Of a DNA stretch of 64,000 nucleotides, positions 43,901 through 46,900 are shown in pieces. The DNA is taken from NCBI GenBank assembly GCA_037379345.1, contig CM074516.1:47467626-47531625 (forward strand). The letters are read 5' to 3'. The position numbers were made by a program. The DNA is from Perna viridis. Lineage: Eukaryota. Position 1 is the stretch's first letter, and each line of letters starts with the position of its first letter.

Positions 43901-46900
43901 AAACTGGACTTTATTGGACAAACTTCATTCTACTATGGTTACAAATGGTATGCAGGGAATTTGCAGGAAAGAAAGCCCTTATTCAGCATCCCATATCTCC
44001 CTAAATCTACTATAAGAATTTATTAGAGAAAACACAAAGATTGTGTCAATAGATGACAGATGCAATGTTACCATGAACAGAATTCAAGATCACTAATATT
44101 TTGTATTGATTTCCTGAACATATGCCAGACAGAAGAGAATTTCTATTGCTGTGCCTGGTCGTATGATGAGTTAGGACAACCAATACTAGCAGCAGCAGGT
44201 CTTCGTGGTGTCATTAGATTAATCAGTCCTGTTTCCATGCAGTGTATTAAGGTATGTCATTAACTGACTTATAACTTAATTTGTGTTTTAGCAATTCAAT
44301 ATTACTAAATTTTAATTTTGAGTTATGTTTCAATAAAATTTTTCAGATTATTGTACACTTATTATATATTTACGGTAGTTAATTATTTGTCATTCAGCAT
44401 TTTATATGGCATGGTTATGCTAGCAATAAGTTGATATACTTAATCATTTATCATTTCAGCATTGTGTATGCCATGGTTATGCTAGCAATGAGTTGATACA
44501 TGTTAACAATTTTTGATTTTAGCATTTTGTAGGCCATGGTAATGCCATCAATGAGTTGAAGTTTTATCCAAAGGATCCTAATCTGTTACTGTCTGTTTCT
44601 AAAGGTACATGTATTACTTTAGAGGAAGTTAACTGCTTTCTCTCTCTTGTGAAATTGTTCATTTTCTTTTTTTTAAACCAGCATCACAACTCTTGGAAAT
44701 GAATACTATTTTCAGGAGAGACAGTATTTCTCTGCTATTTGATGTTCCATGATTCACAGTTTGTTTCTAAGTATTTATCCCTTCATGGTAATTAATCTAA
44801 CTACATGTAGAACATTAAAAGATAACTAATGTACTTGAAGTACTAGGGTAAAAATGCCACACATGTGTGATGCATGTACCTTAAAACACATGTGAAACAG
44901 GTGTATCATATGCATAGTATACATGCATTTACATGTGTGTGCTATGTATGTGAAACACATGTGTCAGAAAACACATGTATCATGCATGTGTTTGGAATAC
45001 GCATGTGACACATGCGAAATGTACATGCATTACACGTGTTTAAAACTGCATATAACACGTGTTTTGAATCGATGAGGAAACCATATTCTTCCTCACAAAG
45101 CACTTACAACAGCTAATAATGAATAAAATTGAAACTAAAATGAAAGATTTAATACAAAGTCAATGTTGCACTTGAGAAAAATGATACATAATGAACCATC
45201 ATGGTAGTTGGATAAGGAGGGCATTTGAAAGTATAAAGTACATGTACCATAATTTTTACATGAAATAATTATGCATGTGTCACATGTGTATTCTTTCAAA
45301 CATGAAAAACTCATGTGAAATGCATGATTACTTATGTGATTCATGCGTATCACATGCATTTTTCACACATGTATCACATATGTGGCATGAAACGTCTCTT
45401 TCACATGCGTGTGACACGCATATAAAACACGTGTGGCATTTTTACCAGTGTAGTTATCATATGTGAATTTAGTTATTAAGTTACTGTTTGTTGGTGTAAG
45501 AGCTTGAATGTTATATTTGTATTTGACAGATCATACCCTGAGGTTATGGAATGTGAAGACAGATATTTGTGTGGTTAACTTTACTTTAATTACTGTGTAT
45601 TTGACAGATCATACCCTGGGGTTATGGAATGTGGAGGCAGATATTTGTGTGGTTAACTTTACTTTAATGTATTACTGTGTATTTGACAGATCATACCCTG
45701 AGGTTATGGAATGTGAAGACAGATATTTGTGTGGTTATATTTGGTGGAGTTGATGGACACAGGGATGAAGTACTTAGTGCTGTAAGATACCCCTGATTCT
45801 TTACCTGGTTGGACATTGTTGGCTTTATATTTGATGACATTGTTGGCTTTATATTTGTTGATATAATAAGTATTTTGACTGGTATGAAAAGTTAAATTTG
45901 GTAAATGATATTAAAAGGTTAGGGTAGCTACATTTACACATGTAAGTATAGTCATGAATGAAGATGAAAGTCATGATATGAAAAATAACCCTGTAATATT
46001 AAAACATCTTTACAATATATTCCCGAAATATTCATTCTCAAGTGGATAAAACTATATATTCAACGGTATCTTTTCTTTCCAGGATTTTAACATTAAAGGT
46101 AGCATTTTTGTGTCGTGTGGTATGGACCACTCTTTGAAGATGTGGAAGATGGACAAAGATGAGATTACAGCTGCCATAGATCTGTCCTACACTTACCATA
46201 GTGTCAAAACTAATAAGTAAGACTTCTATCTAAACTAGTGTATAGTTATTATTATACGTAAGTTGATGGAGGATATTAAGAAAATGTTTTAGATGTGTTT
46301 AAGTAGTGTACAATCACAAAGGTCTATGTCTGTCTGCCCGTTGTCGTCTGATGATAAGCACTACTCATCCAATTACAAATAATTTTGTGCTTTGTTGTTT
46401 TCATTGCATGTTGACTGACTGAGTAAATCAAGAAACAGGGGAGATAATTCACATATGGTGGATGTGTAGCATTCAAATTTGGAATGGTACAGCGAGAATG
46501 ACCCCTTGCCAGGTAGTTGTTGGGGCAATTGTAAAGTACCCTTTTTAAAAAAAAAATTGAAAAGAGTTTTAGGTACCGCATGCCATATCAACGATGATTT
46601 TTGGTATAGCAATAGCCATACCTGCCACACCAGGCACAATACCACAGCATGTTTGTATTATTGCTAAAAATGTGACATAGCTGTCATTATAATTCAAACT
46701 CTCGGTTTTTGAATTTGTATTAAAAATAAAGTATGAAATTTCTTGATATCCAAAAATTTCTAATATGACAAAAAAATGAATTTACACATAAGTTAATGGA
46801 TTTACAGGATGTTGAACAATGAATTCAAATATAACTGTCAGTTTCATTGTAAGAGCTAACTGTGAGCAAACTCACAATGAGAACACCCAAGTTTCATATG

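What the first reader, a model, noticed from the sequence alone, without database searches (positions are those of the whole stretch)
45515..45781. Exon 7 ladder: a decoy acceptor identical to the real one over ~60 nt must be skipped
Seen: copies 1 and 3 are identical from TGTATTTGACAG through GTGTGGTTA, and copy 2 has 3 substitutions. Using AG 45529 adds 160 nt and using AG 45607 adds 82 nt; both shift the frame. The spacers between exon-like parts (~35 nt) look too short to be introns. Inference: correct choice must rest on exon definition from the downstream donor (45782) rather than first-AG scanning. This is the youngest array and is probably copy-number polymorphic.
Basis: partly seen in the sequence, partly recalled or inferred. 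Interest (0 to 1): 0.7.

Follow-up and report, generated by a model that had tools for sequence, protein, structure and literature searches.

The report
Repeated decoy splice acceptors before exon
A short stretch holding the end of an intron and the start of an exon of a mussel-like Polycomb gene (EED) has been copied three times in a row, so the cell must ignore two near-perfect false splice sites; this kind of repeat is already known from lancelets.

Summary
Three head-to-tail units (45518, 45596, 45678; periods 78 and 82 nt) each carry TGTATTTGACAG plus the first 48 nt of an exon. Copies 1 and 3 are identical over 60 nt; copy 2 differs by three A-to-G changes.

The gene is a 12-exon EED/ESC orthologue of a bivalve, not human. 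Only AG 45688-45689 gives the conserved protein. Both decoys shift the frame and meet TGA 45751-45753.

The same anatomy occurs at four of the 11 EED acceptors (exons 6, 7, 11, 12). It occurs at none of 12 acceptors in two neighbouring genes.

[quoted passage not shown] It is the acceptor-side mirror of the human F7 intron 7 VNTR (PMC1557585).

A 10-nt direct repeat brackets the array, pointing to slippage between short repeats.

Scanning from the branch point is not excluded, because the last unit supplies its own branch-point candidates.

Verdict: a new member of a known kind, of moderate interest.

The parts
45510..45519 (+). Left copy of the 10-nt direct repeat GTTATATTTG that brackets the array. 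It lies in the intron and overlaps the first 2 nt of unit 1.
   Evidence: 4 matches in the window against 0.58 expected. Two of the four sit at the two edges of the array.
45518..45577 (+). Unit 1: 12 nt of acceptor (decoy AG 45528-45529) plus a 48-nt copy of the exon 7 start. Identical to unit 3. It sits behind the original intron sequence.
   Evidence: The decoy adds 160 nt and reads into TGA 45751-45753. No strict yTnAy branch candidate lies 12-50 nt upstream.
45578..45595 (+). Spacer 1 (18 nt, T-rich), of unresolved origin. It carries the branch-point candidates for decoy 2.
45596..45655 (+). Unit 2: decoy AG 45606-45607 plus an exon-like part with three A-to-G changes (45619, 45634, 45637).
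   Evidence: The decoy adds 82 nt and reads into TGA 45751-45753.
45656..45677 (+). Spacer 2 (22 nt; spacer 1 plus GTAT). It holds the three strict yTnAy branch-point candidates of the real acceptor (A at 45656, 45661, 45667).
45678..45689 (+). Real acceptor TGTATTTGACAG (AG 45688-45689).
   Evidence: It is the only AG that keeps collinearity with EED proteins.
45690..45781 (+). EED coding exon 7 (92 nt). It encodes (D)[30 protein letters not shown]. The first 48 nt belong to unit 3.
   Evidence: translation. PDB 'Polycomb protein EED', E 3e-11; 87% identity to residues 199-229 of M. edulis EED-like.
45734..45743 (+). Right copy of the bracketing direct repeat GTTATATTTG. It lies inside exon 7, across the end of the repeated part.
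45751..45753 (+). TGA reached in the shifted frame if either decoy AG is used.
45782..45783 (+). Donor GT of intron 7 (GTAAGA).
44379..44559 (+). Sister ladder at the exon 6 acceptor: 3 units of 63 nt. Decoy AGs are at 44396-44397 and 44458-44459; the real AG is 44521-44522.
   Evidence: (z 18).
61229..61445 (+). Sister ladder at the exon 11 acceptor: 4 units of 55-56 nt. The first unit lacks the AG. Decoy AGs are at 61292-61293 and 61347-61348; the real AG is 61403-61404.
   Evidence: (z 21).
61690..61775 (+). Sister ladder at the exon 12 acceptor: 2 units of about 40 nt. The decoy AG is 61701-61702; the real AG is 61741-61742.
   Evidence: (z 5.8).

Best explanation
The feature is an acceptor-side 'mirage' minisatellite. 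A segment holding the last 12 nt of intron 6 and the first 48 nt of exon 7 of a bivalve EED (PRC2) gene was duplicated in tandem, together with an 18-22 nt T-rich junction spacer, to give three units.

Origin (inferred): slippage or template switching between two 10-nt direct repeats, one in the intron and one in the exon. These would lie 64 nt apart in a single-copy state. Filler was inserted at the junction, and one further unequal exchange added the third unit.

Function (inferred): the array itself has none. The last unit is continuous with the rest of the exon and is the working 3' splice site. Its branch point and pyrimidine tract are now supplied by the spacer inside the array.

The two upstream AGs are decoys. 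If used, they give a frameshift and a stop inside the lengthened exon, so such transcripts would be unproductive and probably degraded.

Choice of the correct site (inferred, in three parts):
- U2 binds in the last spacer, and scanning then finds the first AG downstream.
- That acceptor is closest to the intact exon body and to the donor at 45782.
- Copy 2 may be weakened by three A-to-G changes that turn GAAGAC into GGAGGC and GAGG into GGGG.

The same process hit the exon 6, 11 and 12 acceptors of the same gene.
For: Repeat anatomy:
-.

Gene identity and the need for the third AG:
- The exon 7 peptide matches solved EED structures (E 3e-11).
- The exon 10 peptide has its best hit in 'polycomb protein EED-like [Mytilus edulis]'.
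- tblastn of that protein finds 12 collinear exons covering residues 1-428, with no insertion around exon 7.
- The exon lengths sum to 1287 nt, which is 428 codons plus a stop.
- All 7 of 7 decoy AGs in the four ladders are intact, and each leads to a stop inside the lengthened exon.

Recurrence:
- 4 of 11 EED acceptors have an upstream copy (z 5.8 to 40).
- 0 of 11 donors have an adjacent copy.
- 0 of 8 acceptors in the PON-like gene and 0 of 4 in the NUS1-like gene have one. Fisher p = 0.037.
- 8-10% of random intronic points have such a copy, giving P(at least 4 of 11) of 0.009-0.021.

Origin:
- GTTATATTTG lies at both array edges.
- AGATTTATRTTTG occurs at a junction and at the right edge of the exon 11 array.

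Branch candidates:
- Three strict yTnAy motifs lie 23-34 nt before the real AG, all within the spacer.

Precedents:
- Amphioxus mirages include a 3' intron end plus 5' exon part. They contain AG/GT signals, leave regular splicing undisturbed by RT-PCR, and differ in unit number between haplotypes (PMC3087553 passages; PMC3902484 passage).
- A human SETD5 duplication of an acceptor was shown by RNA-seq to leave splicing unaltered (PMC9912651 passage).
- In human F7, the VNTR pseudo-donors stay silent (PMC1557585 abstract).
Against: - No transcript data of any kind were available, so which AG is used is inferred only from protein conservation.
- Copy 1 sits behind the original intron end and is identical from -12 to +48. 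Nothing in the sequence clearly disarms it. Its lack of a strict yTnAy is weak evidence, because 2 of 11 real acceptors also lack one and a third has only one with an AG in between.
- The enrichment at acceptors is modest. TRF arrays placed at random give P = 0.031 for at least 3 of 12 spanning an acceptor, 0.092 for any boundary, and 0.136 when only exons 1-10 are used.
- The spacer has no detectable source. It shows no significant similarity to the sequence upstream of copy 1 (377 of 500 and 488 of 1000 shuffles score as well), and there is no local template. The simple slippage model therefore needs an extra insertion step.
- Mirages have been described only in cephalochordates in the papers I could find, so the name is applied by anatomy.
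- The RNA fold of 45490-45800 is not unusual (z -1.83), so structure gives no help.
Confidence: 0.72

Rival explanations
1. The decoys are used on purpose. The ladders act as 'poison' acceptors whose use yields stop-containing transcripts, tuning the dosage of EED, and hence PRC2, by regulated unproductive splicing.
For: All 7 of 7 decoy AGs are intact and each gives a premature stop. Four ladders lie in one gene and none at the 12 acceptors of the two neighbouring genes. Decoy 2 carries the same branch candidates as the real site.
Against: There are no transcript data. The copies decay like neutral sequence: 68-88% identity in the exon 6 and 11 arrays, and the first exon 11 copy has lost its AG. 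Amphioxus mirages were reported not to give aberrant mRNAs (PMC3902484). No conservation in other species could be examined.
Confidence: 0.1
2. This haplotype carries a damaged or weakened EED allele. The first (original) acceptor is used and exon 7 is read out of frame.
For: Copy 1 retains the original intron context and an identical acceptor from -12 to +48. It is transcribed first.
Against: All 12 exons are open and collinear with M. edulis EED-like, and the exon lengths sum to 428 codons plus a stop; canonical AG and GT sites were read at each boundary. Three further ladders of greater age sit in the same gene, with the real copies still conserved at the protein level. In the human SETD5 case the exon-adjacent copy is used.
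Confidence: 0.07
3. The number of units, or the array itself, is an assembly artefact.
For: The amphioxus authors noted that a mirage was aberrantly assembled in a genome draft (PMC3087553 passage). Two units here are identical over 60 nt.
Against: The units differ by three substitutions and a 4-nt indel in the spacer. Three other arrays with diverged copies have the same anatomy. The window contains no N.
Confidence: 0.06

Closest known systems
'Mirage' minisatellites of amphioxus (Adh3, globins BflGb6/BflGb9, troponin C, PGBD5). I saw passages of PMC3087553 and PMC3902484. The founding paper, Canestro et al. 2002 NAR 30:2871, is not held.
   Same: Both are minisatellite-like tandem repeats whose unit spans an intron-exon boundary. 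BflGb6 duplicates the 3' intron end plus the 5' exon part, as here. The units carry AG/GT signals, and the authentic copy is the one joined to the exon. Several boundaries are affected. The origin is unexplained in both.
   Different: The taxon differs: a bivalve mollusc here, cephalochordates there. The units here are 40-82 nt, against 150-160 nt in the globins and 10-72 nt in Adh3. Here four arrays lie in one gene, all on the acceptor side. Splicing fidelity and length polymorphism were shown there and are untested here.
Human F7 intron 7 37-bp VNTR with 5' pseudo-sites (PMC1557585; abstract read)
   Same: A minisatellite whose edge unit spans an exon boundary, so the authentic splice site is accompanied by identical, normally silent pseudo-sites. 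The site next to the exon body is the one used.
   Different: It is on the donor side, with decoys downstream, and is explained there by 5'-to-3' scanning that picks the most upstream site. Here the correct site is the most downstream one, so the same scanning rule would pick the wrong AG.
Human SETD5 c.568-31_568dup (PMC9912651; one passage)
   Same: A tandem duplication of an acceptor gives two competing sites, the first out of frame and the second in frame. RNA-seq confirmed the prediction of no splicing alteration, with the second site predicted strongest.
   Different: It is a single rare variant with one extra copy and almost no exon sequence in the unit. It is not a multi-copy array fixed in an assembly.
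Intron gain or intron sliding by tandem duplication (Rogers model). I saw only the search listings and abstract starts of PMC2891723, PMC3265369 and PMC4974935.
   Same: Tandem duplication involving splice signals reshapes exon-intron structure. PMC3087553 proposes mirages as raw material for new introns.
   Different: No new intron is formed here. The 30-34 nt between exon-like parts lacks a GT start and is far below the smallest intron of the gene, 226 nt by the coordinates.

Membership tests
Mirage minisatellite (tandem duplication of an intron-exon boundary) | Head-to-tail repeats of minisatellite unit size | tested here: met
   TRF reports period 78, 2.8 copies, 92% matches and score 387. 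The spacings are 78 and 82 nt.
Mirage minisatellite (tandem duplication of an intron-exon boundary) | The unit spans the boundary of a real exon of an intact gene | tested here: met
   The unit is 12 nt of intron plus 48 nt of EED exon 7 plus the spacer.
Mirage minisatellite (tandem duplication of an intron-exon boundary) | Repeat units carry splice signals (many but not all) | tested here: met
   3 of 3 units here keep CAG. Over the four ladders, 7 decoy AGs are intact and one unit (the first exon 11 copy) has lost its AG.
Mirage minisatellite (tandem duplication of an intron-exon boundary) | Regular splicing is not disturbed (RT-PCR) | not testable with these tools
   No transcript data are available. 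The point is inferred only from conservation of the protein.
Mirage minisatellite (tandem duplication of an intron-exon boundary) | Unit number varies between haplotypes or individuals | not testable with these tools
   Only one sequence is held.
Mirage minisatellite (tandem duplication of an intron-exon boundary) | Recurs at several boundaries in the genome | tested here: met
   It occurs at 4 of 11 EED acceptors. It occurs at 0 of 12 acceptors in the two neighbouring genes, so recurrence is shown only within this one gene.
EED/ESC, WD40 subunit of PRC2 | Full-length collinear similarity to annotated EED proteins | tested here: met
   12 exons cover residues 1-428 of M. edulis EED-like, with 67-96% identity per aligned stretch. 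The exon 7 peptide matches PDB EED chains at E 3e-11.
EED/ESC, WD40 subunit of PRC2 | WD40 repeats recognised by Pfam | tested here: inconclusive
   Exon by exon, there are only sub-threshold matches (exon 8: WD40 E 0.005, 17.8 bits against a cut-off of 27). The full-length relatives carry PF00400.
VNTR with silent pseudo-donor sites (human F7 type) | The first unit spans the exon-donor boundary, with pseudo-sites downstream | tested here: not met
   Here the last unit spans the acceptor and the decoys lie upstream. It works like the F7 case in mirror image but is not a member.
NAGNAG / closely spaced tandem acceptors | Alternative AGs a few nucleotides apart, giving in-frame variants | tested here: not met
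   The AGs are 78 and 82 nt apart, and use of either decoy leads to a stop.
New intron made by tandem duplication of an exonic AGGT | The copies supply a donor and an acceptor that bound a spliceable intron | tested here: not met
   The inter-copy stretches of 30 and 34 nt do not start with GT.

The most novel reading that the evidence does not exclude
Acceptor-side boundary duplications may not be random minisatellites that happen to be tolerated. They may be products of a mutational process tied to 3' splice sites of particular genes: four arrays at acceptors of one gene, none adjacent to its donors, and none in two neighbouring genes. Such a process would act in molluscs as well as in lancelets. 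The resulting decoys might be kept as poison acceptors or serve as raw material for intron sliding and new exon starts.
Probability: 0.1. Interest if true: 0.75.

Novelty: new member of a known kind. Interest (0 to 1): 0.45.

Why it matters
Natural arrays of identical acceptors are ready-made experiments on how the spliceosome chooses a 3' splice site.

On the donor side (human F7), the upstream-most site wins, and this was read as 5'-to-3' scanning. Here the downstream-most site must win. Taken together, the two cases favour a rule of 'the site next to the intact exon body' over directional scanning.

Four such arrays in one essential chromatin gene of a bivalve would also extend 'mirages' beyond cephalochordates. 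In seven literature searches I found the term in this sense only in two amphioxus papers, and none of the papers listed concerned a mollusc.

There is also a practical point. Gene predictors and variant callers may mis-annotate such exons, and the arrays are likely length-polymorphic markers.

Tried and rejected
- An older, decayed unit upstream of copy 1: rejected. Alignment of the unit or its tail to the upstream 60-138 nt is no better than shuffles (377 of 500 and 488 of 1000 shuffles reach the score).
- A local template for the spacer: none found, only scattered 9-mers.
- RNA structure hiding the decoys: the fold of 45490-45800 gives z -1.83, with 5 of 100 shuffles as stable. Uninformative.
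- The unit as part of a dispersed repeat: rejected. No other copies occur in the window.
- 'Edge copies alike, inner copies diverged' as a general rule: it holds for exon 7, but over whole units it does not hold for exon 11 (C against real 85%, A against real 79%) or exon 6. Dropped.
- A consistent A-to-G bias in decoys: seen only in copy 2 of exon 7 (3 of 3). I did not tabulate the spectrum for the other arrays.
- Mini-introns between the exon-like parts: rejected, because they are 30-34 nt with no GT start.
- Donor-side ladders: 0 of 11 are adjacent. There is only a diverged partial copy of the exon 9 end about 230 nt downstream.
- Pfam on single exons: only sub-threshold WD40 matches.
- The founding mirage paper could not be read.
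- PMC11839443 said nothing on which acceptor is used.
- The window species' own EED protein was not among the 12 hits, so no annotated model of this exon could be compared.
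Full report
**What is in the sequence**

The window has 64,000 bases, contains no N, and has about 32.5% G+C. It contains the motif TGTATTTGACAG exactly three times, at 45518, 45596 and 45678.
- From each start the sequence continues with the same 48 nt (ATCATACCC ... GTGTGGTTA).
- 45518-45577 and 45678-45737 are identical at 60 of 60 positions.
- The middle copy differs at 45619, 45634 and 45637, each time G where the outer copies have A.
- Between the copies lie T-rich spacers of 18 nt (45578-45595) and 22 nt (45656-45677). The second equals the first plus GTAT.
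- TRF scores the array at 387, with period 78, 2.8 copies and 92% matches.
- A local alignment of the acceptor region against the 400 nt upstream scores 114, against 16.9 +/- 2.4 for shuffles.

**The gene**

- The peptide of 45692-45781 matches solved 'Polycomb protein EED' chains over its whole length (E 3e-11).
- The peptide of 48386-48544 finds 'polycomb protein EED-like [Mytilus edulis]' as its best relative (83% identity), followed by oyster, pearl oyster, brachiopod and gastropod EED.
- tblastn of the Mytilus protein against the window gives 12 collinear coding exons on the + strand, covering residues 1-428.
- I read canonical AG and GT sites at each boundary from the flanks printed.
- The refined exons sum to 1287 nt, that is 428 codons plus a stop.
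- The window is therefore from a bivalve mollusc related to, but not the same as, Mytilus. It is not human.
- The joined (spliced) model was not built or searched, and that step is left out.
- Pfam on single exons gives only sub-threshold WD40 matches, as expected for pieces of 22-53 residues.

**Which AG must be used**

Exon 6 ends in phase 1 and exon 8 begins in phase 0, so exon 7 must be 2 modulo 3. From AG 45688-45689 to the donor GT at 45782 it is 92 nt. The Mytilus protein runs through K198/D199 to A229 without insertion.
- Using AG 45529 adds 160 nt and using AG 45607 adds 82 nt.
- Both shift the frame and read into TGA 45751-45753.
- The stretches between exon-like parts are 30 and 34 nt and do not start with GT. 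The smallest intron measured from the coordinates is 226 nt. They are not introns.

**The same thing happens elsewhere in this gene**

The same anatomy recurs at three other acceptors. In each, tandem copies hold the last 12-20 nt of the intron plus the first 28-45 nt of the exon, and the last copy is the real one.
- Exon 6: 44379-44559, three units of 63 nt.
- Exon 11: 61229-61445, four units of 55-56 nt, the first without an AG.
- Exon 12: about 61690-61775, two units.

So 4 of 11 acceptors have an upstream copy (z 5.8 to 40), while 0 of 11 donors have an adjacent copy. Only a diverged partial copy of the exon 9 end lies about 230 nt downstream. All 7 of 7 decoy AGs are intact, and each leads to a stop inside the lengthened exon.

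Unit identities are 94-98% for exon 7, 90% for exon 12, 76-88% for exon 6 and 68-85% for exon 11. The exon 7 array is therefore the youngest or the most recently homogenised.

**Is the concentration at acceptors more than chance?**

Only moderately.
- This genome is full of local repeats. 8-10% of random intronic points have an equally good copy within 400 nt upstream, which gives P(at least 4 of 11) of 0.009-0.021.
- Placing the 12 TRF arrays of the gene at random gives P = 0.031 for at least 3 spanning an acceptor, 0.092 for any exon boundary, and 0.136 if only exons 1-10 are considered.
- Two neighbouring genes serve as controls. A PON/arylesterase-like gene (9 exons, 10073-17301, + strand) has 0 of 8 acceptors with a ladder. 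A NUS1-like gene (5 exons, 35885-24603, - strand) has 0 of 4. Fisher's test of 4/11 against 0/12 gives p = 0.037.

**How it arose (inferred)**

The 10-mer GTTATATTTG lies at 45510-45519, across the left edge of the array, and at 45734-45743, across the right edge inside the exon. It occurs four times in the window, where 0.58 are expected.
- In a single-copy state these two would be 64 nt apart. That is the layout from which slippage or template switching makes a tandem duplication.
- The exon 11 array shows a similar 13-mer at a junction and at its right edge.
- The junction is not clean, however. Four bases of the repeat are replaced by the 18/22-nt spacer.
- I could not find a source for the spacer, either in the sequence upstream of copy 1 or as a local template.
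- The units are not part of a dispersed repeat.

**How the right site may be chosen (inferred)**

[quoted passage not shown] Several points bear on the choice.
- The real acceptor has three strict yTnAy candidates 23-34 nt upstream (A at 45656, 45661, 45667), all inside the spacer. The next AG after them is 45688-45689. Scanning is therefore compatible with the correct choice, and the decision moves to where U2 binds.
- Decoy 2 has the same three candidates. It differs in its exon part by three A-to-G changes, which turn GAAGAC into GGAGGC and GAGG into GGGG. My inference, untested, is that these may weaken enhancer-like purine motifs.
- Decoy 1 has no strict candidate. This is weak evidence, since 2 of 11 real acceptors have none either. 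Decoy 1 also sits behind the original intron end.
- The real AG is nearest to the unique, purine-rich remainder of the exon and to the donor: 92 nt, against 174 and 252 nt for the decoys.
- RNA folding adds nothing (z -1.83).

**What is known**

- Tandem repeats that span intron-exon boundaries were named 'mirages' in amphioxus Adh3 (Canestro et al. 2002; not held). They were also described in amphioxus globins, troponin C and PGBD5.
- The globin BflGb6 array duplicates the 3' intron end plus the 5' part of exon 2. It has 6 and 3 units in two haplotypes and 81-100% identity between units. It does not disturb regular splicing by RT-PCR, and its origin is called unclear (PMC3087553, passages; PMC3902484, one passage).
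- In human F7, a 37-bp VNTR whose first unit spans the exon 7 donor gives identical pseudo-donors that stay silent (PMC1557585, abstract). That is the mirror image of this case.
- A human SETD5 duplication of an acceptor, whose first site is out of frame and second in frame, leaves splicing unaltered by RNA-seq (PMC9912651, one passage).
- In seven searches I found 'mirage' in this sense only in the two amphioxus papers, and none of the papers listed concerned a mollusc. Papers outside the held library, and supplements I did not open (the globin alignments of PMC3087553), may say more.

**Verdict**

The finding is a true acceptor-side boundary minisatellite in a bivalve EED gene, and one of four in that gene. 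It is a new member of a known kind.

Its mechanism (exon definition) is plausible but unproven, and scanning from the branch point is not excluded.

Left unchecked:
- transcripts;
- population copy number;
- the joined protein model.

Noticed in passing
window 44379-44559; 61229-61445; 61690-61775: Three further ladders of [intron end + exon start] lie at the acceptors of EED exons 6, 11 and 12. They are older and more diverged than the exon 7 ladder. The first exon 11 copy has CATG in place of CAGT.
   Followed up: yes
window 47954-47998: A diverged partial copy of the 3' part of EED exon 9 lies about 230 nt downstream of its donor. It includes a 16-nt exact match at 47979-47994 and has no donor signal.
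   Followed up: partly
window 54461-57391 (+): A 976-codon open frame with many leucine-rich repeats (LRR_8 E 5e-58). By eye it has a signal-like start and a hydrophobic stretch. It is nested on the same strand inside the 12.9-kb intron 10 of EED.
   Followed up: partly
window 10073-17301 (+): A PON/arylesterase-like gene of 9 exons (Pfam Arylesterase on the exon at 13612-13851). It has no boundary ladders.
   Followed up: yes
window 22778-23138 (also 19032-19061): A 97-nt tandem array (3.7 copies, 96% matches) whose units are stop-containing copies of the end of a PON-like last coding exon. It appears to be the remnant of a second, decayed PON copy. This is an exon-derived minisatellite that does not span a boundary.
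   Followed up: partly
window 24603-35885 (-); 18017-18109 (-): A NUS1-like gene of 5 exons (relatives carry PF01255), head to head with EED; their start codons are about 2.4 kb apart. A stop-containing fragment of its third exon lies at 18017-18109.
   Followed up: partly
window 761-5349 (-): A non-LTR retrotransposon with endonuclease (Exo_endo_phos) and reverse transcriptase (RVT_1) frames. A Pao retrotransposon peptidase fragment lies at 21525-21734 (+).
   Followed up: partly
window 26219-26656; 31098-31902; 62387-62809; 51412-52274: There are tandem arrays with periods of about 161-165 nt at three sites, two of which give similar translations by eye. There is also one array with a 320-nt period, with similar-looking sequence near 60270-60700. 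They are probably families of satellite-bearing mobile elements.
   Followed up: no
window 42009-42200; 44871-45072; 45260-45440: A 36-nt array and two stretches rich in CACATG/CATGTG lie in introns 1 and 6 of EED. They are not exon-derived.
   Followed up: no
window 37895-37956: A perfect (AAT)x20.7 microsatellite lies about 300 nt upstream of the EED start codon.
   Followed up: no
window 45812-45861: A 24-nt unit repeated 2.1 times lies 30 nt downstream of the exon 7 donor. It does not include the donor.
   Followed up: no
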